Sequence record: PV340539
Length of the DNA stretch: 40,804 bases
DNA from: Escherichia phage mEp234
Direction: 5' to 3' (one strand)
The notes under the pieces were generated by a model. That model worked only from the letters and a program-made list of their open reading frames with translations. It did not search any database and was not told where the DNA came from. Positions within the stretch are counted from its first letter, which is position 1. Each line of letters opens with the position of its first letter. The position numbers were made by a program, and so were the translations under genes. Positions 2,051 to 37,602 of the stretch are shown here, piece by piece.

Positions 2051-2218
2051 AGAAATCCCCGCGAGTGCGAGGATTGTTATGTAATATTGGGTTTAATCAT
2101 CTATATGTTTTGTACAGAGAGGGCAAGTATCGTTTCCACCGTACTCGTGACCTGCTCCCCGTTGATTAGTACACCCCGATGTTAGTAATGTCTTCATAAG
2201 CCACATGAGGACATCCCC

Positions 2219-2482
2219 ATGAAGAAGCGTTTTTCCGACGAACAGATCATCAGTATTCTCCGCGAAGCCGAAGCTGGGGTACCCGCCCGTGAACTCTGCC
2301 GCAAGCATGCCATTTCCGATGCCACGTTTTACACCTGGCGTAAGAAGTATGGCGGTATGGAGGTGCCTGAAGTTAAGCGCCTGAAGTCGCTTGAGGAAGA
2401 GAACACCAGACTCAAGAAGCTGCTTGCCGAAGCCATGCTGGATAAAGAGGCGCTTCAGGTGGCTCTTGGGCGAAAGTACTGA
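2219..2482 (+). CDS. IS3-family transposase OrfA (HTH DNA-binding part)
   Basis: 87 aa '[46 protein letters not shown]...' typical IS3/IS407 OrfA with leucine zipper. Confidence 0.9.
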
Positions 2483-2505
2483 CGACAGACCAGAAGCGGG
2501 AAGCC

Positions 2506-3339
2506 GTGATGTTGATGTGTGATGCGACCGGTCTGTCGCAACGTCGTGCCTGCAGGCTTACAGGTTTATCCCTGTCGACCTGCCGCTATGAGGCTCACCG
2601 TCCGGCTGCTGATGCGCATTTATCAGGGCGCATCACTGAGCTGGCACTGGAGCGCAGGCGTTTTGGCTACCGTCGTATTTGGCAGTTGCTGCGCCGTGAA
2701 GGGCTTCATGTTAATCATAAGCGCGTGTACCGGCTTTATCACCTCAGTGGCCTGGGCGTAAAACGCAGAAGACGTCGTAAAGGGCTGGCAACAGAACGTC
2801 TGCCGCTGCTCCGTCCGGCGGCGCCCAATCTGACCTGGTCGATGGATTTCGTCATGGACGCACTTTCCACCGGTCGCAGGATCAAGTGTCTTACCTGCGT
2901 CGATGATTTCACAAAGGAATGCCTGACGGTCACTGTTGCCTTTGGGATTTCAGGCGTTCAGGTCACGCGTATTCTGGACAGCATTGCACTGTTTCGAGGC
3001 TATCCGGCGACGATAAGAACTGACCAGGGGCCGGAGTTCACTTGCCGTGCACTGGATCAATGGGCCTTTGAGCATGGTGTTGAGTTGCGCTTAATCCAGC
3101 CGGGCAAGCCAACGCAGAACGGATTTATTGAGAGCTTTAACGGACGATTTCGCGATGAATGTTTGAATGAGCACTGGTTCAGCGATATCGTTCATGCCAG
3201 GAAAATTATTAATGACTGGCGGCAGGATTATAACGAATGCCGCCCGCACTCCACGCTGAATTATCAGACACCGTCTGAATTTGCAGCGGGCTGGAGAAAG
3301 GGTCATTCTGAGAATGAAGATTCCGACGTTACTAACTGA
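2506..3339 (+). CDS. IS3-family transposase OrfB (DDE catalytic domain); probably expressed as OrfAB fusion by -1 frameshift in 2446-2482
   Basis: 277 aa with '...[54 protein letters not shown]...'; frame -1 relative to orfA, open from 2446. Confidence 0.9.
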
Positions 3340-3368
3340 GTGTTGTATCTAATCGTGGGGGCAGGTCA

Positions 3369-3513
3369 CAACGGCGCTGTAGTTTGTCCATTCTTTCTTT
3401 TTTGTCTGGCGATCGTAATACTGAACGCCAGCACGGATGTTGAATCCGATATTTTCCCCGGCCTGAAACTCTCTTGCGGGCTTGTTTAGTCTTACAGTAA
3501 TCGAATGTGCCAT
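3369..3513 (-). pseudogene. 5' fragment (~48 codons) of a gene translationally coupled to erf, truncated by the IS element; weakly SSB/OB-fold-like
   Basis: ATG overlaps erf stop (TAATG); 'MAHSITVRLNKPAREFQAGENIGFNIRAGVQYYDRQTKKKEWTNYSAVV' then runs into the IS inverted repeat; no continuation beyond the IS. Confidence 0.45.
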
Positions 3514-13496: not shown

Positions 13497-13665
13497 CCCA
13501 TCCCAATCCCTTCAATACCAGAAAGAAAGCGTCGAGCGGGCATTAACGTGCGCTAACTGCGGTCAGAAGTTGCATGTGCTGGAAGTTCACGTGTGTGAGC
13601 ACTGCTGCGCAGAACTGATGAGCGATCCGAATAGCTCAATGTACGAGGAAGAAGACGATGGCTAA
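13489..13665 (+). CDS. ninF: NinF, lambda type
   Basis: 58 aa '[58 protein letters not shown]'; below ORF-track cutoff. Confidence 0.8.
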
Positions 13666-26388: not shown

Positions 26389-27093
26389 ATGTCTGCACTT
26401 TATGAAAAATCGCAGCTGACGAAGATCCTTATTTCCTCCCTGCCAGCCACCAAAGAAACGATGGATTCCGCCACCTTTCTCGATCTGAGTTGCACCATCA
26501 AAGAAATTCAGTTCACTGGTGGCCAGAAGCAGGATATCGACGTAACAACACTTTGCTCTACCGAGCAGGAGAACATCAACGGCCTGCCTTCTCCGTCAGA
26601 AATCTCTCTGTCCGGCAACTTCTACAATAATCCAGCGCAGGACGCCTTGCGTGATGCGTATGACAACGACACCACTTACGGCTTCCAGATCATCTTCCCG
26701 TCAGGTAATGGTTTTAAGTTCCTGGCCGAAGTTCGCCAGCATACCTGGTCATCTGGTACCAATGGTGTTGTGGCAGCTACATTCTCACTGCGCCTTAAAG
26801 GCAAGCCTGTCCCGATTGACTCTGTACTTAAACTGACCACTGATCTTCCTTCCTCACTGTCTGTAGCGGTGGGGGCTGCGATCAGCATGGCTGTAGTAGC
26901 TGCCGGTGGTAAGCCTCCGTATGCCTACACCTGGAAGAAGGCAGGTAGCACCGTCAGCGGGCAGACATCCGATACCTTTAATAAAGCCACCGCAGTTTCA
27001 GGTGATGCAGGTGATTACACCTGTGTGGTTACGGATTCTTCTTCTCCGGTCAAAACGGTTACCTCAGCTGCCTGCACCCTTACTATCAGTTAA
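26389..27093 (+). CDS. Major tail (tube) protein with C-terminal Ig-like domain
   Basis: 234 aa; C-terminal '...GGKPPYAYTWKKAGSTVSGQTSDTFNKATAVSGDAGDYTCVVTDSSSP' Ig-like. Confidence 0.8.
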   Translation: MSALYEKSQLTKILISSLPATKETMDSATFLDLSCTIKEIQFTGGQKQDIDVTTLCSTEQENINGLPSPSEISLSGNFYNNPAQDALRDAYDNDTTYGFQIIFPSGNGFKFLAEVRQHTWSSGTNGVVAATFSLRLKGKPVPIDSVLKLTTDLPSSLSVAVGAAISMAVVAAGGKPPYAYTWKKAGSTVSGQTSDTFNKATAVSGDAGDYTCVVTDSSSPVKTVTSAACTLTIS

Positions 27094-27127: not shown

Positions 27128-27514
27128 ATGTCGCAAACTTTAAAACAATTAGCCATGGCGAAAATGGCTGGCTTTCGCCATAAGACGGTCGTTGTCCCTG
27201 AGTGGGAAGGTGTCAAAGTGGTTCTCCGTGAGCCGTCAGGTGAAGCCTGGCTGCGCTGGCAGGAGGTGGTGAAAGGGGGGGCCGACGATGAAAATGTGTC
27301 GGTATCGGAAAAGGCGCACCGTAATCTTTGCGCTGACGTGGTGCTCTTCATTGACGTTCTGTGTGACACCGATAAGCAACCGGTATTCAGCGTAGACGAA
27401 GAAGAGCAGGTGCGTGAAATTTACGGGCCAGTGCACTCACGTCTGCTCAAACAGGCGCTTGACCTGATCAACAATGCGGACGAAGCGCGGGAAAAGTCTC
27501 AACCCCCGGCGTAA
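27128..27514 (+). CDS. Tail assembly chaperone (gpG-like)
   Basis: 128 aa, upstream of tape measure; -1 frame ORF follows. Confidence 0.75.
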   Translation: MSQTLKQLAMAKMAGFRHKTVVVPEWEGVKVVLREPSGEAWLRWQEVVKGGADDENVSVSEKAHRNLCADVVLFIDVLCDTDKQPVFSVDEEEQVREIYGPVHSRLLKQALDLINNADEAREKSQPPA

Positions 27515-27522
27515 AGTTTCTG

Positions 27523-27801
27523 ATGTCGCTTGCGCTCCGGATGGGGCGCACGCTCTCAGAGCTTCGGCAGAATATGACGGCAAGCGAGCTTCTGATGTGG
27601 ATTGAGTACGACAGGCAAAGCCCGGTTGGCGATATTCGCGGTGATATCCATGCAGCGCAGATTGTCTCTGCCATCTACGGCTCGCAGGGGGCAAAAGTAC
27701 CGCTGGACGATGCGATCCTGCGCTGGGGTGGTGATGAGCAATCAGAACCGAAGGACCCGTTTGCAGGGCTTGAGGCGGCACTTACAGCTGCGACACAATA
27801 A
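27523..27801 (+). CDS. Tail assembly chaperone frameshift extension (gpT-like; expressed as G-T fusion by -1 frameshift)
   Basis: -1 frame relative to G-like ORF, open from 27463; slippery-like 'GGGAAAAG' at 27489-27496. Confidence 0.65.
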   Translation: MSLALRMGRTLSELRQNMTASELLMWIEYDRQSPVGDIRGDIHAAQIVSAIYGSQGAKVPLDDAILRWGGDEQSEPKDPFAGLEAALTAATQ

Positions 27802-27858
27802 TTGCTTCACATGCCTTCAATGTAGCGATACGCTCTTTCCTTAAGTAAAGGAGGCGTT

Positions 27859-28047
27859 ATGGAACCACTGGTAGTAGTGTTTGGAATATTCGGCTGGCTG
27901 ATAAATCTAATTGTGATTTTTTATTTATTACGGTTTAGCACAAGGGCAAATGAACAAGTTGAAGCCCTTAAAGAGATAAATAAAAAGCAAGATGCGCAAA
28001 TAGATTTATTAATACAAGTCGCTCACCAAAGAAAAGACAGTTTATAA
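27859..28047 (+). CDS. Small single-pass membrane protein (62 aa), moron between G/GT and tape measure; paralog of 33212..33436
   Basis: RBS AAGGAGG; N-terminal TM helix; 'FYLLRFSTRANEQVEALKEINKK' aligns with 'FFINRASVRANRQVELLESIDQK'. Confidence 0.7.
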   Translation: MEPLVVVFGIFGWLINLIVIFYLLRFSTRANEQVEALKEINKKQDAQIDLLIQVAHQRKDSL

Positions 28048-28054
28048 CTCACGA

Positions 28055-28077
28055 CCCGCTATCAAGCGGGTTTTTTT
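28055..28077 (+). terminator. Hairpin + U7 element after the first membrane-protein moron
   Basis: 'cccgct-atca-agcggg' + TTTTTTT, immediately before ATGGG. Confidence 0.6.
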
Positions 28078-31000
28078 ATGGGTGAAAATATGGCTACGTT
28101 GCGCGAACTGATCATCAAAATATCTGCAAACTCTCAGTCATTCCAGTCTGAAATTTCTCGTGCTTCAAGAATGGGGAATGACTATTACCGGGTAATGCAG
28201 ACTGGAGGACGCCAATCGGCCGCAGCTTCGCGTGAAACTCAGCGTGCCTTGGCTGAGGTAACTAGTCAAATAAACACCGCGAAGGCCTCAGCACTGGGAA
28301 TGGCTGGTGCATTTGCTGGAGCATTTGCGACTGGTCATCTTATATCGCTGGCCGATGAATGGAGCTCTATTAATGCCAGGCTAAAGCAGGCTTCCCAGTC
28401 GTCAGATGATTTCACGGAGTCCCAGCGGGCGCTGATGGATATTAGCCAGCGAACCGGAACCGCCTTCTCTGATAATGCGAGTCTTTTTGCGCGTTCAGCC
28501 GCTTCTATGCGTGAATATGGCTACAGTTCAGAAGAGGTTCTGAAGGTAACCGAGGCTATATCAACAGGGCTTAAGCTGTCAGGCGCAAGCGCGTCTGAAG
28601 CGAGTTCGGTAATCACGCAGTTCAGCCAGGCTCTGGCGCAGGGTGTTCTTCGAGGCGAGGAATTTAACTCCGTCAACGAAAACGGTGATCGAGTTATCCG
28701 TGCTCTTGCCGCAGGGATGGGTGTAGCTCGTAAAGATCTGAAGGCAATGGCCGATCAGGGGATGCTAACCGCAGATAAAGTTGTCCCGGCCCTGATAAGT
28801 CAACTTGGCACTATGCGTGGTGAATTTGAGGCAATGCCGCAGACCGTTTCTGCTGCCACGACGAAAGTCGAAAATGCTTTCATGGCATGGGTAGGTGGCG
28901 CTAATGAAGCCACTGGTGCGACAAGTACTCTTGTTGCCGTATTGAATACGGTTTCTGACAATATAGACACTGTGGCTACGGCTGCCGGAGCTTTGGCTGC
29001 GATAGGTGGAGCTCGCTATCTTGGAGGGATGTTTGGCGATCTTGGGAACCAGACGGCGCAATTAATAGATGCCAGAAAGAACGAAATTGCGCTCGCAGCT
29101 GCAAGGGCTGAATCTGCTACCCAATCACAACGCAAGGCCGCCGCCGATGCTATTGCTGCTGAGCGAGCTTACCAGCTTGCTCAGTCAGAACTTGTGCTGG
29201 CAAAGAATACTAATGCTGAGGCTACTGCCACTCAAAATGCCATATCCAAGCGCCGGGCAATGATTACAGCAAATGCGGCACTGGTACAGTCAAACAGAGC
29301 CGTTGCAGCCTCTCAGCAGGCACTTAACTCTGCAACATCAGTGCTGGGGCTTGTAAAAACTGGCGCTACGGGTCTTTTGTCGTTAGTTGGTGGTTTGCCA
29401 GGAATTTTAATGTTGGGTGCTGGGGCGTGGTACACGATGTATCAACGCCAAGAACAAGCCAGGGAATCTGCAATCAAATATGCGGACACAATAGAGCAGG
29501 TACGAGATAATCTGAAATCAATGTCTCAGACGCAGATATCCGCCAACCTTGGACAGGCGAATATTTCACTGGATGCTCAGAATAGTGCGATTGAACAGCA
29601 GAAGCAGAAAGTTGCTGAATTATCCAATCAACTTTATAACGCAAAATTAGCAGCCAATTCTGCTTCAGAGGGGACATGGCTGTATAACGATGCGGTTGAG
29701 AAAGCCGCAGACTTTGCTTCAGAACTTGCGGTTGAAGAAGGCCGACTTGAGCAAATGCTCAATAAAAGAAAGCAAACACAACAGTTAATAAACGACATAA
29801 CTGATCAGGCTATAAATAAAACAGTAGAAATGGCTGGCGCCGTAAGTTCTCTTACAGAGATGTATGACCGGCTGAACAAGGTTTCCAGACAGTCTACAGC
29901 AGTGTCCCCACCAAAATATGCAGGACCTGTACTTCCTGCGCTTGATAATAAGCAACAACAAGCTATTGAGAAAGCACAGCGACAGCTTGAGTTATCTGGC
30001 CTTCAGGGTTTGGATAAGGCTCGAAAGCAGGCAGAATTCGATGCATCTGATCTGAACCTTCCAGCTGGTTGGCGTGAGAAATATGTCAGCATGGAAGTTG
30101 AGTCTGCCAGGCAATTACAAGCAATTCGTAACTCAAGCCGCCATAAGGGTGGAAAATCCGAGGCGGAAAAAACAGCTGATACCTATGACAAGCTGATCAA
30201 GCAGCAAAAAGAGCAGATCGCTCTGCAAGGGCAGAATACCGAGCTGGCAAAGGTTAAATATCAGGTAAGCCAGGGTGAGCTTTCTACGCTAAGTCAGGCC
30301 CAGAAAGCCGAAGTTATGCGTAATGCTGCTCTCATCGATCAGGTTAAATTGCGTGAGCAACTGCGAAATTACGAAGCCAACCTTGCTGACAGTAACGCCA
30401 GCGCCCGCGCAGCCAATGAAGCGCAACTGCTGGGATACGGGCAGGGAACCAGGTTCCGTGAAAGACTTCAGGAGCAGTTCAATCTGCGTAAGGAGTTTGA
30501 GCAGAAGAATACCGATCTTCTCCGCCAGCGTCAGGCTGGTGAAATCGACGAGACGTTCTATCAGCAGGGGCTGGCACTTAATAAGCGCTACCTCGAAGAG
30601 CGCCTGCGCGACCAGGAGGGATATTACGCAGCTTCTGATGCGCAGCGTGACGACTGGATGACGGGACTGTCTGAGGGTTATGCGAACTGGGTGGACGAAG
30701 CGACAGATTACTCCTCCATGGCCGCTGACGGCATGAAGCAGGCCATGGGTGGCGCGGTCACCACGATCACCGACATGCTCAATGGCAACGTTGACAGCTG
30801 GAAGGACTGGGGCGTGAGCGTACTGAAGATCATCCAGAACGTTCTGGTGAACATGGCTGTTGCTAACGGCGTCAGTTCAATTGGTTCTCTCTTCAGCTTT
30901 GGCGCATCTTCCGCCGCTGCCGCCAGTAGCGGTACTGCAATTCAGAACGCTGGCGCGAACTTCACCTTTAACGCGAAGGGTAATGTTTACGACTCTCCGT

Positions 31001-31356
31001 CCCTGAGCGCATACAGCAATGGCGTGTTTCAGACCCCTCAGCTTTTTGCTTTTGCCAAAGGAGCGGGTGTGTTTGCAGAGGCTGGACCTGAAGCCATTAT
31101 GCCGCTTACCCGTGCTGCTGATGGTTCGCTTGGCGTTCGGGCTGTTGGCACTGGTGGTGGTCAGGCTGTATCTTCGGCTCCACAGGTTTACATCACCATC
31201 GATGGCAACGGAAATACTTCCACGCAGACTTCACCCGGCCTTGAGCAATTTGGTGCTGATGTCGGTAAATATATTGATCAGCGATATAAGCAGAACATCA
31301 TGCGAGATATTCGCCCTGGCGGTGACATCTGGAACGCAATGAAAGGAACCCGATAA
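28078..31356 (+). CDS. Tail tape measure protein
   Basis: 1092 aa, alpha-helical/Ala-Gln-rich, between chaperone and M/L/K/I/J. Confidence 0.9.
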   Translation: MGENMATLRELIIKISANSQSFQSEISRASRMGNDYYRVMQTGGRQSAAASRETQRALAEVTSQINTAKASALGMAGAFAGAFATGHLISLADEWSSINARLKQASQSSDDFTESQRALMDISQRTGTAFSDNASLFARSAASMREYGYSSEEVLKVTEAISTGLKLSGASASEASSVITQFSQALAQGVLRGEEFNSVNENGDRVIRALAAGMGVARKDLKAMADQGMLTADKVVPALISQLGTMRGEFEAMPQTVSAATTKVENAFMAWVGGANEATGATSTLVAVLNTVSDNIDTVATAAGALAAIGGARYLGGMFGDLGNQTAQLIDARKNEIALAAARAESATQSQRKAAADAIAAERAYQLAQSELVLAKNTNAEATATQNAISKRRAMITANAALVQSNRAVAASQQALNSATSVLGLVKTGATGLLSLVGGLPGILMLGAGAWYTMYQRQEQARESAIKYADTIEQVRDNLKSMSQTQISANLGQANISLDAQNSAIEQQKQKVAELSNQLYNAKLAANSASEGTWLYNDAVEKAADFASELAVEEGRLEQMLNKRKQTQQLINDITDQAINKTVEMAGAVSSLTEMYDRLNKVSRQSTAVSPPKYAGPVLPALDNKQQQAIEKAQRQLELSGLQGLDKARKQAEFDASDLNLPAGWREKYVSMEVESARQLQAIRNSSRHKGGKSEAEKTADTYDKLIKQQKEQIALQGQNTELAKVKYQVSQGELSTLSQAQKAEVMRNAALIDQVKLREQLRNYEANLADSNASARAANEAQLLGYGQGTRFRERLQEQFNLRKEFEQKNTDLLRQRQAGEIDETFYQQGLALNKRYLEERLRDQEGYYAASDAQRDDWMTGLSEGYANWVDEATDYSSMAADGMKQAMGGAVTTITDMLNGNVDSWKDWGVSVLKIIQNVLVNMAVANGVSSIGSLFSFGASSAAAASSGTAIQNAGANFTFNAKGNVYDSPSLSAYSNGVFQTPQLFAFAKGAGVFAEAGPEAIMPLTRAADGSLGVRAVGTGGGQAVSSAPQVYITIDGNGNTSTQTSPGLEQFGADVGKYIDQRYKQNIMRDIRPGGDIWNAMKGTR

Positions 31357-32453: not shown

Positions 32454-33164
32454 ATGCGTCAGAAAACCGTCGATGAGATTATGGCGCATGCTGCAGCTGA
32501 ATATCCTCGCGAGTGTTGCGGCGTGGTGGCGCAGAAAAGCCGTGTTGAACGTTATTTCCCGTGCCGGAATCTTGCCGCGGCGCCGGAGGACAATTTTGTC
32601 CTTTGCCCGGAAGATTACGCAGCTGCTGAGGACTGGGGTACGGTGATCGCCATCGTTCACAGTCACCCTGACGCCACAACGCAACCGAGCGAACTGGATA
32701 AAGCGCAATGCGACGCAACGCTTTTACCCTGGCACATCGTGAGCTGGCCTGAGGGGGATTTGCGCACCATCCAGCCGCGTGGGGAACTGCCGCTGCTGGA
32801 GCGTCCGTTTGTGCTTGGCCACTTCGACTGCTGGGGTCTGGTAATGAGCTATTTCCGGCAAACGCATGGTATCGAGCTCCACGATTACCGGGTTGATTAT
32901 CCCTGGTGGGAAAACGACTATCCGGACAACTTCTATCAGGATTGCTGGTATGAGTGCGGATTCCGTGAATTCGACGGACCACCGAAACCCGGCGATATGG
33001 TGATCATGCAGGTCCAGGCTGATAAGTGGAACCACGCTGGAATTCTGCTGGAGGGCAATATGCTGCTGCACCACCTGTACGGACATCTGAGCCAGCGCGT
33101 GCCGTATGGTGGCTACTGGCAGGAAAGGACGATGAAGATTCTTAGACATCAGAATTTTATTTAA
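32454..33164 (+). CDS. K: Tail assembly protein K-like (JAB/MPN + NlpC/P60 domains)
   Basis: 236 aa; JAMM motif 'HSHPD', Cys/His NlpC-like region. Confidence 0.85.
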   Translation: MRQKTVDEIMAHAAAEYPRECCGVVAQKSRVERYFPCRNLAAAPEDNFVLCPEDYAAAEDWGTVIAIVHSHPDATTQPSELDKAQCDATLLPWHIVSWPEGDLRTIQPRGELPLLERPFVLGHFDCWGLVMSYFRQTHGIELHDYRVDYPWWENDYPDNFYQDCWYECGFREFDGPPKPGDMVIMQVQADKWNHAGILLEGNMLLHHLYGHLSQRVPYGGYWQERTMKILRHQNFI

Positions 33165-33211
33165 CAAACTGTCACTGATACTATCGTGTAGTACACAGCA
33201 AGGAGAACGAT

Positions 33212-33436
33212 ATGTATACAGTTGGGTTTGGTTGGATCTTCGTCGGTATTTTTATTGGGTTAATTCTCTGGTTTTTCATCAACCGCGCCAGCGTCAGAGC
33301 GAACAGGCAGGTTGAATTACTTGAGTCTATCGACCAGAAATTATCAAAAATAGTAGATCCAAACTTCGAGGCAAATAACAAAGACCAGTCGAAAGAAAAC
33401 TACCTTGAAGAAGCAAGGAAAAAAGCTGGGCTTTGA
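33212..33436 (+). CDS. Small single-pass membrane protein (74 aa), moron between K and I; paralog of 27859..28047
   Basis: RBS AAGGAGA; N-terminal TM helix; shared RAN(E/R)QVE motif. Confidence 0.7.
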   Translation: MYTVGFGWIFVGIFIGLILWFFINRASVRANRQVELLESIDQKLSKIVDPNFEANNKDQSKENYLEEARKKAGL

Positions 33437-33452
33437 GAGCGTAAATTAACAA

Positions 33453-33474
33453 ACCACCTACGGGTGGTTTTTTT
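33453..33474 (+). terminator. Hairpin + U7 element after the second membrane-protein moron
   Basis: 'accacc-tacg-ggtggt' + TTTTTTT before ATGGGGG. Confidence 0.6.
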
Positions 33475-33485
33475 ATGGGGGCAGC

Positions 33486-34094
33486 ATGCAAGAGGTAATG
33501 ACAAGAATTGAGCTAAGTGGCGTGCTAGCTAAGACATATGGAAGGGTTCATCACCGTCTGGTTCGCACTACTGCTGAAGCCATTAATGCACTCGCGAAAA
33601 CCATCAATGGATTCGAGAAATTCTTAAACACAAGCAAAGCCCGAGGGCTGACGTATGCCGTTTATAGAGATAAAAAGAATATTGGCGTTGATGATCTCGG
33701 CTTTCCCGTCACCGGCGAAGTGATCCGGATTGTCCCTGTAGTAATAGGGAGTAAAAAGGCTGGTCTTTTGCAGACGATCTTGGGGGCCGTGCTTATTACT
33801 GCTGCTGTGTTGACTGGAGCCGGCGGTATTGGCGCTGCTTTCGCTGCTGGTGGATTGACGGGGTTTGCTGCTGCCACTGGTGCCTCGTTGGTCCTCGGTG
33901 GGGTTATTCAGCTGCTTTCACCGCAGCCATCAGGCATAGCCAGTAAACAAAGCGCAGATAACCGTGCATCGTATGCGTTTGGCGGGGTAACCAACACTGC
34001 AGCGCAAGGCTACCCGGTGCCTCTGCTTTATGGTAAGCGTCGAATCGGCGGAGCGATTATTTCTGCCGGAATTTATGTCGAAGATCAGCAGTAG
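33486..34094 (+). CDS. I: Tail assembly protein I-like
   Basis: 202 aa with Gly/Ala-rich hydrophobic C-terminal half typical of lambda gpI. Confidence 0.8.
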   Translation: MQEVMTRIELSGVLAKTYGRVHHRLVRTTAEAINALAKTINGFEKFLNTSKARGLTYAVYRDKKNIGVDDLGFPVTGEVIRIVPVVIGSKKAGLLQTILGAVLITAAVLTGAGGIGAAFAAGGLTGFAAATGASLVLGGVIQLLSPQPSGIASKQSADNRASYAFGGVTNTAAQGYPVPLLYGKRRIGGAIISAGIYVEDQQ

Positions 34095-34113
34095 ATAACT
34101 AACCTTTTTTCTG

Positions 34114-34135
34114 GCCACCTTCGGGTGGCTTTTTT
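34114..34135 (+). terminator. Hairpin + U6 element upstream of J-like gene (third copy of the element)
   Basis: 'gccacc-ttcg-ggtggc' + TTTTTT before ATGGGCG. Confidence 0.5.
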
Positions 34136-34146
34136 ATGGGCGCAAT

Positions 34147-37100
34147 ATGGCTACAGATAAAGTGTTAAAAGGCCGCAAGGGCGGCAGCTCAAGTTCCCGA
34201 ACCCCTACCGAACAGCCTGATGATCTGCAATCTGTAGCGAAGGCAAAGATCCTCGTTGCGCTTGGGGAAGGGGAGTTTGCTGGACAGCTCACCGGGAAGG
34301 ATATCTACCTGGACGGAACAGCGCTGGAGAATGCTGACGGCTCCCAAAACTTCAGCGGGGTAACGTGGGAGTTTCGCGCGGGAACGCAGGCGCAAAAATA
34401 TATTCAGGGTATTCCCGGTACCGAAAACGAGATCAGCGTAGGAACTGAGGTATCAAGTGCCACAGCCTGGACGCGCACGTTTACCAATACGCAGCTTTCA
34501 GCAGTTCGCCTGCGTCTTAAATGGCCCTCGCTTTTCAAACAGGAAGACGACGGCGATCTGGTGGGTTACTCGGTCAATTATGCGATTGACCTGCAGACGG
34601 ACGGCGGCACATGGCAGACGGTACTCAATACCAGCGTGACCGGCAAAACGACGTCTGGTTATGAGCGCAGCCACCGTATCGATTTACCGCAGGCTGGCAG
34701 CACATGGACAATACGTCTGCGTAAGATTACCTCTGACGCCAACAGCGCGAAGATCGGCGACACGATGATGCTGCAGAGCTTCACCGAGGTGATTGATGCC
34801 AAACTGCGCTACCCGAACACCGCGCTGCTCTACGTCGAATTCGACTCAAGCCAGTTCAACGGCTCTATTCCTCAAATTTCATGCGAACCGCGCGGCCGCG
34901 TTATCCGCGTTCCAGATACCTACGACCCTGAAACCCGCACTTATAGCGGTACATGGACCGGTGCGTTTAAGTGGGCATGGACGGATAACCCTGCGTGGAT
35001 TTTTTACGACCTGGTTGTTTCTGACCGGTTTGGCCTCGGGCACCGTTTGACCGCTGCGAATATTGATAAATGGACTCTTTATCAGGTTGCTCAGTATTGT
35101 GATCAGATGGTACCAGACGGCAAAGGGGGCAACGGTACAGAACCACGCTATACCTGCAACGTGTACATTCAGGACCGGAACGACGCCTACACAGTCCTGC
35201 GTGATTTTGCCGCTATCTTCCGTGGCATGACCTACTGGGGCGGGGATCAGATTGTGGCCCTGGCTGACATGCCGCGCGATGTTGATTACAGCTATACGCG
35301 CGCTAACGTTGTTGGCGGTCGCTTCACCTATTCGAGCAGCACCACGAAAAGCCGCTACACCACAGCGCTGGTTTCATGGTCAGATCCGGGTAACGCTTAT
35401 GCCGACGCAATGGAGCCGGTATTTGAGCAGGCGCTGGTGGCGCGATACGGCTTCAATCAGCTGGAAATGACAGCCATCGGCTGCACCAGGCAGTCAGAGG
35501 CGAACCGAAAGGGGCGCTGGGGTATTCTCACCAACAACAAGGATCGCGTTGTTTCGTTTGATGTCGGGCTGGACGGAAACATTCCGCAGCCGGGCTACAT
35601 CATCGCCGTGGCAGACGAGCTGCTTTCCGGAAAGGTTATGGGCGGCCGCATCAGCGCCGTTAACGGTCGCGTTATCAAACTTGACCGCGTAGCTGATGCA
35701 GCACCAGGTGATCGCCTTATTCTCAACCTGCCTTCCGGAGCGTCGCAGAGCAGGACCATTCAGGCCGTGAACGGGGAATCAGTCACAGTCACCACGGCAT
35801 ACAGTGAGACGCCACAGGCCGAAGCTGTTTGGGTTGTTGAATCTGACGAGCTTTACGCGCAGCAGTATCGTGTTGTCAGCGTCTCCGACAACGGTGATGG
35901 CACTTTCTCAATCACCGGCGCATGGCACGACCCGGATAAATATGCCCGCATCGATACCGGAGCCATCATTGACCAGCGGCCGGTGAGCGTGATCCCGCCT
36001 GGTAACCAGTCGCCGCCTGCGAACATCGTGATCAGCTCGTTTTCCGTGGTGCAGCAAAATATCAGCGTCGAAACGATGCGCGTGAGCTGGGACCAGGCGC
36101 AGAACGCTATCGCCTATGAAGCGCAATGGCGCCGCAACGACGGGAACTGGGTTAACGTGCCGCGCACCTCCACCACGTCATTCGACGTCCCGGGGATTTA
36201 TGCCGGGCGCTACCTGGTGCGGGTGCGCGCAATCAATGCCGCAGAAATTTCATCCGGATGGGGCTATTCAGAAGAGAAAACGCTGACGGGTAAAGTGGGC
36301 AATCCACCGAAGCCGGTTGGCTTCATCGCTTCTGAAAATGTGGTTTTCGGCATCGAGCTGAACTGGGGATTCCCGGCGAATACCGACGACACGCTGAAGA
36401 CGGAAATTCAGTACAGCCTGACCGGAACCGAGGACGATGCGATGCTGCTGGCCGATGTGCCTTATCCGCAGCGCAAATATCAGCAGATGGGCCTCAAGGC
36501 TGGGCAGATTTTCTGGTACCGCGCTCAGCTGGTGGACCGCAGCGGCAACGAATCAGGGTACACAGAATGGGTGCGAGGACAGGCCAGCATCGATGTTTCC
36601 GACATCACAGATGTGATCCTGGAGGACATGAAAGGCTCCGATACGTTCAAAGACCTGATCGAGAACGCTGTGGACAGCAATGAAAAAATTGCTGGCATGG
36701 CTGACGAAATCAAAAACCATGCCGACGAACTCGAGCAGCAGGCGAAAGACATCCAGGAAAACGCTGACGGGCTGGCCCAGGCCGAAGTGAAGATCGACGA
36801 GATTTCTGTGTCGATGGATGGCATGACGGGAGGCGTGAAGAACTCGGCAATCGCGATTATCCAGAATGGGCTGGCGCAGGTTGTCAGTCGTCGTTCCCAG
36901 ACCGCGACAAACGCAGGGAACAGCGCCAGCATTGACCGTATCGACACGACCATAGCCGACACCAGCTCGGCGGTTGCTCGCGCGCTGGTGACGCTGGATG
37001 CTTCAGCTGGTGGGAATATCTCCAACTCTACCGATCTCACTGAAACTCTGGCCGATTTCACGCAGGCATCGGCGACAAAAATTAACACCCTGAATGTTAA

Positions 37101-37602
37101 ATCTGGCGAAAACAGTGCCGCGATAAATGTCAACGCACAGGCTATCGCAGATGTAAACGGTAACCTAAGTGCGATGTACAACATCAAGGTTGGTGTCTCC
37201 AGCAATGGACAGTATTACGCCGCGGGGATGGGTATCGGCGTGGAGAATACGCCATCCGGCATGCAGTCGCAGGTTATCTTCCTGGCTGATCGCTTCGCCG
37301 TCACCACGGCGGCCGGAAATAGCGTGGCTTTGCCGTTCGTGATCCAGAACGGGCAGACATTCATCCGGGCCAGTTTCATCCAGGACGGCACTATCAGCAA
37401 CGCAAAGATTGGTAATTTTATCCAGTCGAACAATTATGTTGCTGGTTCTGCTGGCTGGAAGCTTGATAAAGGGGGGACGTTTGAGAACTACGGTTCGACT
37501 GCTGGTGAGGGAGCCATGAAACTGACAAATCAGACGATCAGCGTCAAAGATGGCAGTAATGTTCTTAGGGTGCAGGTTGGCCGATTAACGGGAGTATTCT
37601 GA
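34147..37602 (+). CDS. J: Central tail fibre / host specificity protein J-like
   Basis: 1151 aa; conserved J-like N-terminal two-thirds with fibronectin-type region; divergent C-terminus. Confidence 0.9.
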   Translation: MATDKVLKGRKGGSSSSRTPTEQPDDLQSVAKAKILVALGEGEFAGQLTGKDIYLDGTALENADGSQNFSGVTWEFRAGTQAQKYIQGIPGTENEISVGTEVSSATAWTRTFTNTQLSAVRLRLKWPSLFKQEDDGDLVGYSVNYAIDLQTDGGTWQTVLNTSVTGKTTSGYERSHRIDLPQAGSTWTIRLRKITSDANSAKIGDTMMLQSFTEVIDAKLRYPNTALLYVEFDSSQFNGSIPQISCEPRGRVIRVPDTYDPETRTYSGTWTGAFKWAWTDNPAWIFYDLVVSDRFGLGHRLTAANIDKWTLYQVAQYCDQMVPDGKGGNGTEPRYTCNVYIQDRNDAYTVLRDFAAIFRGMTYWGGDQIVALADMPRDVDYSYTRANVVGGRFTYSSSTTKSRYTTALVSWSDPGNAYADAMEPVFEQALVARYGFNQLEMTAIGCTRQSEANRKGRWGILTNNKDRVVSFDVGLDGNIPQPGYIIAVADELLSGKVMGGRISAVNGRVIKLDRVADAAPGDRLILNLPSGASQSRTIQAVNGESVTVTTAYSETPQAEAVWVVESDELYAQQYRVVSVSDNGDGTFSITGAWHDPDKYARIDTGAIIDQRPVSVIPPGNQSPPANIVISSFSVVQQNISVETMRVSWDQAQNAIAYEAQWRRNDGNWVNVPRTSTTSFDVPGIYAGRYLVRVRAINAAEISSGWGYSEEKTLTGKVGNPPKPVGFIASENVVFGIELNWGFPANTDDTLKTEIQYSLTGTEDDAMLLADVPYPQRKYQQMGLKAGQIFWYRAQLVDRSGNESGYTEWVRGQASIDVSDITDVILEDMKGSDTFKDLIENAVDSNEKIAGMADEIKNHADELEQQAKDIQENADGLAQAEVKIDEISVSMDGMTGGVKNSAIAIIQNGLAQVVSRRSQTATNAGNSASIDRIDTTIADTSSAVARALVTLDASAGGNISNSTDLTETLADFTQASATKINTLNVKSGENSAAINVNAQAIADVNGNLSAMYNIKVGVSSNGQYYAAGMGIGVENTPSGMQSQVIFLADRFAVTTAAGNSVALPFVIQNGQTFIRASFIQDGTISNAKIGNFIQSNNYVAGSAGWKLDKGGTFENYGSTAGEGAMKLTNQTISVKDGSNVLRVQVGRLTGVF

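What the first reader, a model, noticed from the sequence alone, without database searches (positions are those of the whole stretch)
27859..28047. First of two paralogous small membrane-protein morons inserted in the tail gene cluster
Seen in sequence: a 62-aa ORF with strong RBS, N-terminal TM helix and its own hairpin/U-run sits between the G/GT chaperone and tape measure genes, where lambda has no gene. It is clearly homologous to the 74-aa ORF at 33212-33436 (shared 'F..R.S.RAN.QVE.L..I..K'). Inference: duplicated small membrane proteins carried as tail-module morons are candidates for superinfection exclusion, for instance blocking DNA injection at the inner membrane, or another host-interaction function.
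Basis: partly seen in the sequence, partly recalled or inferred. Interest (0 to 1): 0.6.

Follow-up and report, generated by a model that had tools for sequence, protein, structure and literature searches.

The report
HK97 gp15 superinfection-exclusion moron
This small membrane-protein gene is the well-known HK97 "gp15 moron", already shown experimentally to let a prophage block DNA injection by related phages; its second copy between tail genes K and I (HK022 gp20) is a known but functionally untested relative.

Summary
A 62-aa ORF (27859-28047) with a strong ribosome-binding site, one N-terminal membrane helix and its own terminator lies between the tail chaperone genes and the tape measure gene. 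It is homologous to a 74-aa ORF at 33212-33436 (BLASTP E 5e-9; both match Pfam YebO-like PF13974 and phrog_5031).

It is not new. The window is phage mEp234, an HK97 relative. The 62-aa protein is HK97 gp15 with one substitution (L14M). gp15 is the element for which the word "moron" was coined, and Cumby et al. 2012 showed it is a prophage-expressed inner-membrane protein that blocks genome injection by HK97 and HK75. The second ORF is HK022 gp20, annotated as a moron product since 2000. I found no functional test of it.

What this analysis adds:
- In 109 distinct viral loci, phage-borne YebO-like genes always lie in tail clusters with an HK97-related tape measure gene, in one of three slots.
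- They always have lower GC than their flanks and almost always a terminator.
- They carry positionally conserved promoter-like elements and are under strong purifying selection (dN/dS about 0.06-0.09).
- The two copies are old, distinct subfamilies, not a recent duplication.

The parts
27806..27834 (+). Promoter-like element of the gp15 moron: TTCACA, 17-nt spacer, TACGCT (8 of 12 consensus positions)
   Evidence: Found by the relaxed scan; the strict scan missed it. The same architecture sits at the same position in Citrobacter (TTCACA-17-TACGAT) and Raoultella (GTGACA-17-TAGGAT) prophages, although the spacer sequence has diverged. Its function is inferred. Prophage expression of HK97 gene 15 is reported in PMC3594210.
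27848..27854 (+). Shine-Dalgarno sequence AAGGAGG of gene 15
   Evidence: Read directly from the sequence; it lies 4 nt upstream of the ATG at 27859.
27859..28047 (+). Gene 15 (62 aa): a YebO-like single-pass inner-membrane protein and ortholog of the HK97 gp15 superinfection-exclusion protein
   Evidence: 61/62 identical to HK97 Gp15, which is annotated 'moron product'. Identical to the protein in HK75, HK106, HK446, HK544, HK633, mEp234 and mEpX1. Pfam PF13974, 1.2e-9. ORF GC is 0.333 against 0.497 for the window. dN/dS is 0.06-0.09.
28053..28078 (+). Intrinsic terminator of the gp15 moron (hairpin GACCCGCT-ATCA-AGCGGGTT followed by a T-run)
   Evidence: Terminator scan. Annotated as a putative terminator in the HK97 record. 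A hairpin plus T-run follows 35 of 35 gp15-type genes in the viral contigs.
33176..33184 (+). Extended -10-like element TGATACTAT upstream of the second copy (candidate promoter)
   Evidence: TGnTAnnnT occurs 34-40 nt before the ATG in 13 of 19 distinct gp20-type and 12 of 13 Klebsiella-type upstream regions. It occurs in 1% of random 50-nt windows and 5-8% of shuffled upstream sequences. Its function is inferred.
33200..33205 (+). Shine-Dalgarno sequence AAGGAG of the second copy
   Evidence: Read directly from the sequence; it lies 6 nt upstream of the ATG at 33212.
33212..33436 (+). Second YebO-like gene (74 aa), identical to HK022 gp20, between tail genes K and I; function untested
   Evidence: HK022_20 is annotated 'moron gene product'. 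The gene is present and essentially invariant in 13 E. coli phages. Pfam PF13974, 1.8e-12. ORF GC is 0.404. dN/dS is 0.06 against L110. The C-terminal motif YLEEARKKAGL is conserved down to about 50% identity.
33451..33477 (+). Intrinsic terminator of the second moron (hairpin AAACCACC-TACG-GGTGGTTT followed by a T-run)
   Evidence: Terminator scan. Annotated as a putative terminator in the HK97 record. A hairpin plus T-run follows 24 of 29 gp20-type genes.
29341..29427 (+). Context only, inferred: the single strongly hydrophobic segment of the tape measure protein (residues 422-450, VLGLVKTGATGLLSLVGGLPGILMLGAGA), a candidate for the membrane-inserting part that gp15 obstructs
   Evidence: Hydropathy scan. 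The segment is conserved in the Citrobacter, Raoultella and Klebsiella-phage tape measure proteins that sit next to a T-H-slot YebO-like gene. It lies in the N-terminal ~720 residues that have no counterpart in the HK022 tape measure protein. No experiment links this segment to gp15.

Best explanation
The ORF at 27859-28047 is gene 15 of an HK97-type phage (the window is mEp234). It is a self-contained, horizontally acquired transcription unit (a 'moron') made of a promoter, a ribosome-binding site, a 62-codon ORF and a terminator, inserted between the tail chaperone genes and the tape measure gene.

**Shown by others for the near-identical HK97 protein.** It is expressed from the repressed prophage, it sits in the inner membrane, and it stops HK97 and HK75 from delivering their genome after adsorption. 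It does not alter the outer-membrane receptor, and it acts independently of repressor immunity. [quoted passage not shown]

**Inferred here.**
- The protein is oriented N-out/C-in, so almost only its membrane helix is reachable from the periplasm.
- It most likely acts within the membrane against the channel-forming step of the HK97-type tape measure protein, either directly or through a host membrane partner.
- The conserved juxtamembrane R-S-R-N-Q-L motif and the C-terminal helix sit on the cytoplasmic side.

**Second copy.** The ORF at 33212-33436 (HK022 gp20 type) is an old paralog with the same build. It is probably also a prophage-expressed membrane protein that interferes with phage entry, but that has not been tested.
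For: **Identity**
- The stretch around the ORF is 100% identical at DNA level to mEp234 and HK106, and 99.6% to HK97.
- The protein is 61/62 identical to HK97 Gp15, annotated 'moron product'.

**Published function**
- PMC3594210 and PMC10883804, as summarised in the statement.

**Moron anatomy**
- GC falls to 0.34-0.40 against flanks of 0.52-0.58.
- Terminators follow both ORFs.
- HK022 has its chaperone and tape measure genes 20 nt apart with no gene 15 between them.

**Promoter**
- The -35/-10 architecture is positionally conserved in E. coli, Citrobacter and Raoultella versions.
- An extended -10-like element is enriched upstream of the gp20 and Klebsiella types.

**Membrane protein**
- One hydrophobic stretch at residues 3-24, with basic residues on its C-terminal side.

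**Link to the tape measure gene**
- In 109 distinct viral loci, every YebO-like gene lies in a tail cluster whose tape measure protein matches the window's.
- gp15-type genes are always in the T-H slot and have diverged in step with the tape measure gene (73-76% against 66-75% DNA identity).
- The HK022 tape measure protein, which escapes gp15, shares only its C-terminal ~370 residues with the window's.

**Selection**
- dN/dS is 0.06-0.09.
Against: - The primary paper (Cumby et al. 2012, PMC3430355) is not in the held library. The experimental claims rest on the same authors' commentary and on citing papers.
- The window's protein differs from the tested HK97 protein at L14M, inside the membrane helix. 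However, the L14 form is the one found in 7 of the 8 phages, including HK75.
- The molecular target is unknown; the authors themselves say the precise mechanism is unknown.
- The topology and the tape-measure hydrophobic segment as target are my inferences.
- The gp15 promoter matches only 8 of 12 consensus positions and failed the strict scan.
- For the second copy there is no functional evidence. It is identical in phages with HK97-type and HK022-type tape measure genes, so it cannot be matched to the phage's own tape measure type in the way gp15 appears to be.
Confidence: 0.9

Rival explanations
1. The small proteins are tail assembly or structural factors, for example membrane-anchored helpers for the tape measure protein, and not host-protecting passengers.
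For: All 109 distinct viral loci place the gene inside the tail cluster, next to or near the tape measure gene. The gp15 type has diverged in parallel with the tape measure gene. The genes lie in the late operon and would also be transcribed late.
Against: - HK022 lacks gene 15 entirely, and a Pantoea prophage has K and I adjacent.
- HK97, a viable phage, has an amber stop at the invariant Gln33 of its gene 20.
- The genes have much lower GC than all neighbouring tail genes in 109 of 109 loci, and their own terminators in 104 of 109.
- The gene occupies three different slots, which is not expected of a part with a fixed assembly role.
- The published data show a prophage-expressed exclusion function.
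Confidence: 0.03
2. The genes mainly provide the cellular function of chromosomal YebO, whatever that is, to the lysogen. Phage exclusion would be incidental.
For: Both are members of Pfam PF13974 and share the invariant juxtamembrane motif with E. coli K-12 YebO. PGAP names them 'YebO family protein'.
Against: - They are only 31-36% identical to YebO and lack its conserved C-terminal half (LLRRLCEANEPEK...IIRLVAER), which is 75-100% conserved across genera.
- The authors report that overexpressing or deleting E. coli yebO had no effect on HK97 propagation.
- The hosts already carry yebO.
- The strict linkage to tail clusters argues for a phage-related role.
Confidence: 0.04
3. This concerns the second copy only. 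gp20 is not an injection blocker. It either has a different role, such as acting during lytic growth or modulating a host membrane protein, or it is dispensable cargo carried along with gene I.
For: - I found no functional test of it.
- It has no two-hexamer promoter.
- It is inactivated by an amber codon in HK97.
- It forms a single 99.4%-identical block with gene I, so hitch-hiking could explain its spread among E. coli phages.
- It is not matched to the tape measure type.
- It carries a conserved C-terminal motif, YLEEARKKAGL, that gp15 lacks.
Against: - It is under strong purifying selection (dN/dS 0.06; pN stays at 0.16-0.30 where synonymous sites are saturated).
- Its length and motifs are conserved across Enterobacter, Serratia and Pantoea.
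- It has an enriched extended -10-like element and a terminator.
- The Klebsiella-type protein combines gp15 and gp20 motifs in the gp15 slot, which suggests one functional family.
Confidence: 0.3

Closest known systems
HK97 gp15 (Juhala et al. 2000 moron; Cumby et al. 2012 superinfection-exclusion protein)
   Same: It occupies the same slot, with the same promoter, ribosome-binding site and terminator layout. The protein is 61/62 identical, and the DNA is 99.6% identical over the moron.
   Different: One conservative substitution, L14M, in the membrane helix. The window's allele is the commoner one among the sequenced phages.
HK022 gp20 ('moron gene product')
   Same: The window's second ORF has an identical protein in the same K-I slot.
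   Different: Compared with gp15 it is a separate subfamily. It is 74-80 aa, about 31% identical, has a variable linker and a conserved YLEEARKKAGL C-terminus, and can occupy the K-I, H-M or T-H slot. I found no published function.
Chromosomal YebO of Enterobacteriaceae (E. coli b1825, next to mgrB)
   Same: Same Pfam family (PF13974). It has a single N-terminal membrane helix followed by the invariant R-S-R-N-Q...L motif.
   Different: It is 93-96 aa with a different, highly conserved C-terminal half, and only 31-36% identical. It is chromosomal, not in a tail cluster. It is reported to have no effect on HK97 growth. Its function is unknown.
Klebsiella prophage YebO-like protein (e.g. phage ST147-VIM1phi7.2, QBP28426.1)
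   Same: It sits in the same T-H slot directly upstream of an HK97-type tape measure gene, and has low GC and a terminator.
   Different: It is 77 aa and is a hybrid of the gp15 central motif and the gp20 C-terminal motif. It is 44% identical to gp15 and 42% to gp20. Untested.
Other injection-blocking exclusion proteins: P22 SieA, Tuc2009 Sie2009, TP-J34 Ltp, T4 Imm
   Same: They work alike: phage-encoded membrane or envelope proteins that stop genome entry after adsorption. [quoted passage not shown]
   Different: There is no detectable sequence relationship: no PADLOC hits, nothing above cut-off in NCBIfam, nothing significant in the PDB. Ltp is a lipoprotein on the outer face of the membrane, and SieA is a larger polytopic protein. 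The statement about T4 Imm is from general knowledge, not tested here.

Membership tests
HK97 gp15 superinfection-exclusion protein (ortholog) | Near-identical sequence to the characterised HK97 protein | tested here: met
   61/62 residues identical. tblastn gives 98.4% to HK97 and 100% to HK75 and six other phages.
HK97 gp15 superinfection-exclusion protein (ortholog) | Location between the G/GT tail chaperone genes and an HK97-type tape measure gene | tested here: met
   The same slot is used in Citrobacter and Raoultella prophages and in 35 of 35 gp15-type viral loci.
HK97 gp15 superinfection-exclusion protein (ortholog) | Inner-membrane protein with one membrane helix | tested here: met
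   Hydropathy gives one 22-residue uncharged stretch with a mean KD of 2.53. This is a prediction only; actual localisation cannot be tested with these tools.
HK97 gp15 superinfection-exclusion protein (ortholog) | Expression from the prophage and exclusion of HK97 and HK75 at the DNA-entry step | not testable with these tools
   Reported for HK97 gp15 in PMC3594210. Testing the window's allele needs plating and DNA-entry assays.
Moron (Juhala et al. 2000 definition) | Extra DNA between two genes that are adjacent in related phages | tested here: met
   - Gene 15: HK022 has gp14 ending 20 nt before its tape measure gene.
- Gene 20: the Pantoea locus L012 has K and the next gene overlapping, with no gene between.
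Moron (Juhala et al. 2000 definition) | Composition that differs from the flanking genes | tested here: met
   GC is 0.333 and 0.404 against 0.497 for the window. The gene has lower GC than its flanks in 109 of 109 loci.
Moron (Juhala et al. 2000 definition) | Own terminator | tested here: met
   Hairpin plus T-run after both ORFs, and in 104 of 109 loci.
Moron (Juhala et al. 2000 definition) | Own promoter | tested here: inconclusive
   The strict consensus scan found none. A relaxed scan and the comparative data give positionally conserved promoter-like elements. No transcript data are available here.
Pfam PF13974 YebO-like | Score above the curated gathering cut-off (27 bits) | tested here: met
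   38.7 bits for the 62-aa protein and 47.7 bits for the 74-aa protein. Both also hit phrog_5031.
Chromosomal YebO orthologs | Length of about 95 aa, the conserved C-terminal half, and the locus next to mgrB | tested here: not met
   The window's proteins are 62 and 74 aa, lack the LLRRLCEANEPEK...IIRLVAER region, and lie in a phage tail cluster.
Catalogued anti-phage defence systems (PADLOC) | Match to a defence-protein model | tested here: not met
   No families matched either protein at E up to 1.

The most novel reading that the evidence does not exclude
Phage-borne YebO-like genes could be a single, widespread family of injection blockers that travel with HK97-type tape measure modules across Enterobacterales. 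They occur in three slots (T-H, H-M and K-I). In this reading, phages such as this one carry two members with different specificities: gp15 against phages with the same tape measure type, and gp20 against another class or another step of entry. The conserved hydrophobic segment of the tape measure protein (residues 422-450) would be the target of gp15.
Probability: 0.35. Interest if true: 0.45.

Novelty: already known. Interest (0 to 1): 0.2.

Why it matters
The finding rediscovers, from raw sequence alone, the founding example of a phage moron and its experimentally shown role in superinfection exclusion.

What remains open is modest but testable:
- The molecular target of gp15 is still unknown.
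- The second paralog (gp20 type) has no assigned function, although it is conserved, under purifying selection, and present in more phages than gp15.
- The strict association of this small-protein family with HK97-type tape measure modules in several genera suggests a general, portable way of blocking siphophage genome entry.

This association also corrects a statement in one review that gp15 has no homologs in other phages.

Tried and rejected
1. **Host tracking or mimicry.** gp20 shares IGLILWFFINRAS exactly with E. coli K-12 YebO, so I asked whether phage copies recombine with or mimic the host's YebO. I rejected this. Chromosomal YebO has nearly the same segment in Citrobacter, Salmonella and Kosakonia. 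The DNA of this stretch differs at many synonymous positions. gp15-type proteins in Citrobacter do not resemble Citrobacter YebO.
2. **Recent tandem or segmental duplication within the phage.** Rejected. The two copies are about 31% identical, and each has its own subfamily with conserved length in other genera.
3. **An RNA element instead of, or overlapping, the ORFs.** Rfam at gathering threshold finds nothing at either locus.
4. **Reverse-strand ORFs overlapping gene 20** (33181-33381 and 33327-33491). I treated these as spurious, because conservation and dN/dS fit the + strand frame.
5. **NCBIfam, PADLOC and PDB sequence searches.** None gave a significant hit.
6. **Primary paper.** PMC3430355 could not be read.
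7. **A bare 'YebO' literature search.** This was wasted on the surname Yeboah.
8. **Structure prediction.** Not run. A 62-aa helix-plus-helix model would not discriminate between the hypotheses.

Full report
**What is there**

The window carries a lambda-like tail gene cluster on the + strand:
- major tail protein, 26389-27093
- chaperone G, 27128-27514 (Phage_TAC_1, 1.6e-60)
- the T frame, 27523-27801 (Phage_tail_T)
- a 62-codon ORF, 27859-28047
- tape measure gene, 28078-31356 (TMP_3, Phage_HK97_TLTM, Tape_meas_lam_C)
- M, L and K (K at 32454-33164; JAB and NlpC/P60 domains)
- a 74-codon ORF, 33212-33436
- I, 33486-34094
- J, 34147-37602

The 62-codon ORF has the ribosome-binding site AAGGAGG 4 nt before its ATG. 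It has one uncharged hydrophobic stretch at residues 3-24 (mean Kyte-Doolittle 2.53), followed by basic residues. A hairpin and T-run follow at 28053-28078.

**The paralogy is real**

BLASTP between the two peptides gives 43% identity over 44 residues, E 5e-9. Both exceed the Pfam gathering score for PF13974 (YebO-like), and both hit phrog_5031.

**Identity of the window and of the ORFs**

Around the first ORF the DNA is 100% identical to phages mEp234 and HK106 and 99.6% identical to HK97. The left 6 kb matches mEp234 at 100% in two pieces. The window is therefore mEp234 in prophage orientation, starting at the integrase gene.

The 62-aa protein differs from HK97 Gp15 at one residue, L14M. 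The HK97 record annotates gene 15 as "moron product", followed by a putative terminator.

The 74-aa protein is identical to HK022 gp20, annotated "moron gene product". In HK97 the same gene carries a single CAG-to-TAG change at codon 33, which is why that record has no gene 20.

**What is already known**

According to the commentary by the authors of the primary study (PMC3594210):
- The word "moron" was first used for the element containing HK97 gene 15.
- gp15 is expressed from the prophage and inserts into the inner membrane.
[quoted passage not shown] - Overexpressing or deleting E. coli yebO does not affect HK97.
- The precise mechanism is unknown.

[quoted passage not shown] The primary paper itself is not held.

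**Moron anatomy, checked here**

GC drops to 0.34-0.40 at both elements against flanks of 0.52-0.58. HK022 has its chaperone and tape measure genes 20 nt apart with no gene 15. A Pantoea prophage has K and the next gene overlapping, with nothing between.

The strict two-hexamer scan found no promoter upstream of either gene. A relaxed scan finds TTCACA-17-TACGCT at 27806-27834. The same architecture sits at the same place in Citrobacter (TTCACA-17-TACGAT) and Raoultella (GTGACA-17-TAGGAT), while the spacer sequence has diverged.

The second gene has the extended -10-like element TGATACTAT at 33176-33184. The pattern TGnTAnnnT occurs 34-40 nt before the ATG in 13 of 19 distinct gp20-type upstream regions and 12 of 13 Klebsiella-type ones. 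It occurs in 1% of random 50-nt windows and 5-8% of shuffled upstream sequences. Because these sequences are related, this is supporting evidence, not proof.

**Distribution**

- gp15 occurs in 8 distinct sequenced E. coli phages, and the gp20 type in 13.
- Each moron's DNA is found in only 6-7 of 5,426 complete E. coli genomes, where PGAP names both "YebO family protein".
- Each copy has its own subfamily. The gp15 type is 58-62 aa and occurs in Citrobacter, Klebsiella and Raoultella. The gp20 type is 74-80 aa and occurs in Enterobacter, Serratia and Pantoea.
- A 77-aa Klebsiella-prophage form combines gp15's central motif with gp20's C-terminal YLEEARKKAGL, and sits directly upstream of the tape measure gene.

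A survey of IMG/VR gave 158 loci, of which 109 are distinct. In every locus the gene lies in a tail cluster whose tape measure protein matches the window's by phmmer. One gp20-type locus and one Klebsiella-type locus begin at the gene itself; I assign them to H-M and T-H from the gene downstream. The slots are:

| Slot | gp15 type | Klebsiella type | gp20 type |
|---|---|---|---|
| T-H | 35 | 45 | 2 |
| H-M | 0 | 0 | 6 |
| K-I | 0 | 0 | 21 |

The gene has lower GC than its flanks in 109 of 109 loci, and a hairpin plus T-run follows in 104 of 109.

In Citrobacter and Raoultella the gp15 moron has diverged about as much as the adjacent tape measure gene (73-76% against 66-75%). It is therefore an old resident of that module. 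dN/dS is 0.06-0.09 for gp15 and 0.06 for gp20.

**Mechanism**

*Shown by others:* the block comes after adsorption, at genome entry. The protein is in the inner membrane. Specificity maps to the tail-tube and tape-measure region.

*Inferred here:*
- The positive-inside rule puts the N-terminus outside and the C-terminal ~38 residues in the cytoplasm. From the periplasm, little more than the membrane helix is available to an incoming tail.
- HK97-type tape measure proteins have one strongly hydrophobic segment (residues 422-450). It is conserved in all lineages with a T-H-slot YebO-like gene. It lies in the N-terminal ~720 residues that the HK022 protein does not share.
- A reasonable model is that gp15 interferes, within the bilayer, with the insertion or channel formation of that segment, either directly or through a host partner. 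This last step is speculation and can be tested with escape mutants.

**The second copy**

gp20 has the same build as gp15, but it is identical in phages with HK97-type and HK022-type tape measure genes. It forms one 99.4%-identical block with gene I, while K is only 89-94% identical. If it is an exclusion protein, its specificity is not tied to the carrier's tape measure type. I found no paper that tests it.

**Rivals**

A structural or assembly role is unlikely: the genes are absent from close relatives, HK97 carries an amber allele of gene 20, the slot varies, and the moron signature is present. Supplying ordinary YebO function is unlikely given the divergent C-terminal halves and the reported lack of any effect of yebO on HK97.

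**Verdict**

The feature is already known and is a textbook case. The comparative results on slots, promoter elements, the hybrid Klebsiella form and the strength of selection are small additions, not a new kind of system.

Noticed in passing
window 2148-3369: A 1,222-bp IS3-family insertion sequence that mEp234 (JQ182732) lacks. It has inverted ends TGACCTGC..., the Rfam IS1222 frameshift element at 2449-2566 (156.6 bits), and a transposase ORF at 2506-3339 with rve and HTH_21 domains. It interrupts the homolog of mEp234_028 (an HK97 gp40-like gene) and accounts for most of the 1,226-bp length difference (window 40,804 bp against 39,578 bp for mEp234).
   Followed up: partly
L002 1113-1211 (HK97 record 13560-13658), equivalent to window codon 33 of 33212-33436: HK97's copy of gene 20 is inactivated by a single CAG-to-TAG (amber) change at the family-invariant Gln33. 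The rest of the moron is 99.4% identical to the window and to HK022. This explains the missing gene 20 in the HK97 annotation and shows the gene is dispensable for a viable phage. From general knowledge, a supE host would insert Gln at the amber codon and restore the wild-type protein.
   Followed up: yes
window 28053-28082, 33451-33480, 34113-34142: Three terminator-like hairpins, before H, I and J, all end in the same junction, TTTTTTATGGG, followed 5-8 nt later by the ATG of the next essential tail gene. The third lies in an I-J spacer of only 52 nt with no gene, at the place where HK97 and HK022 carry the gp22 and gp23 morons. It looks like an empty or vestigial moron boundary, or a shared recombination joint.
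   Followed up: no
L003 2598-4849 (Klebsiella phage ST147-VIM1phi7.2): An IS21-family element (transposase plus AAA ATPase) is inserted between the T chaperone gene and the YebO-like gene, inside the tail operon. This suggests that the spacer upstream of the moron tolerates insertions.
   Followed up: no
window 33401-33433 (gp20 residues 64-74): The extreme C-terminus YLEEARKKAGL is nearly invariant in gp20-type and Klebsiella-type proteins down to about 45-50% identity, but it is absent from gp15 and from chromosomal YebO. From memory, RKKA followed by a hydrophobic end resembles the MuA-type ClpX recognition tail (RRKKAI). This was not tested.
   Followed up: no
window 33164/33165 (K stop / start of the gp20 moron): There is a mosaic junction here. 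Gene K is only 89-94% identical among the window, HK97 and HK022, whereas the gp20 moron and gene I together form a block that is 99.3-99.5% identical.
   Followed up: partly
window 29341-29427 (tape measure residues 422-450): This is the only strongly hydrophobic segment of the HK97-type tape measure protein (GLLSLVGGLPGILMLGAGA). It is conserved in the Citrobacter, Raoultella and Klebsiella-phage relatives. The HK022 tape measure protein has no such segment at this position; its own lies at residues 43-65.
   Followed up: partly
literature (PMC6379469): [quoted passage not shown] The data here show more than 100 distinct phage or prophage loci with homologs, including a paralog in the same genome.
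   Followed up: yes
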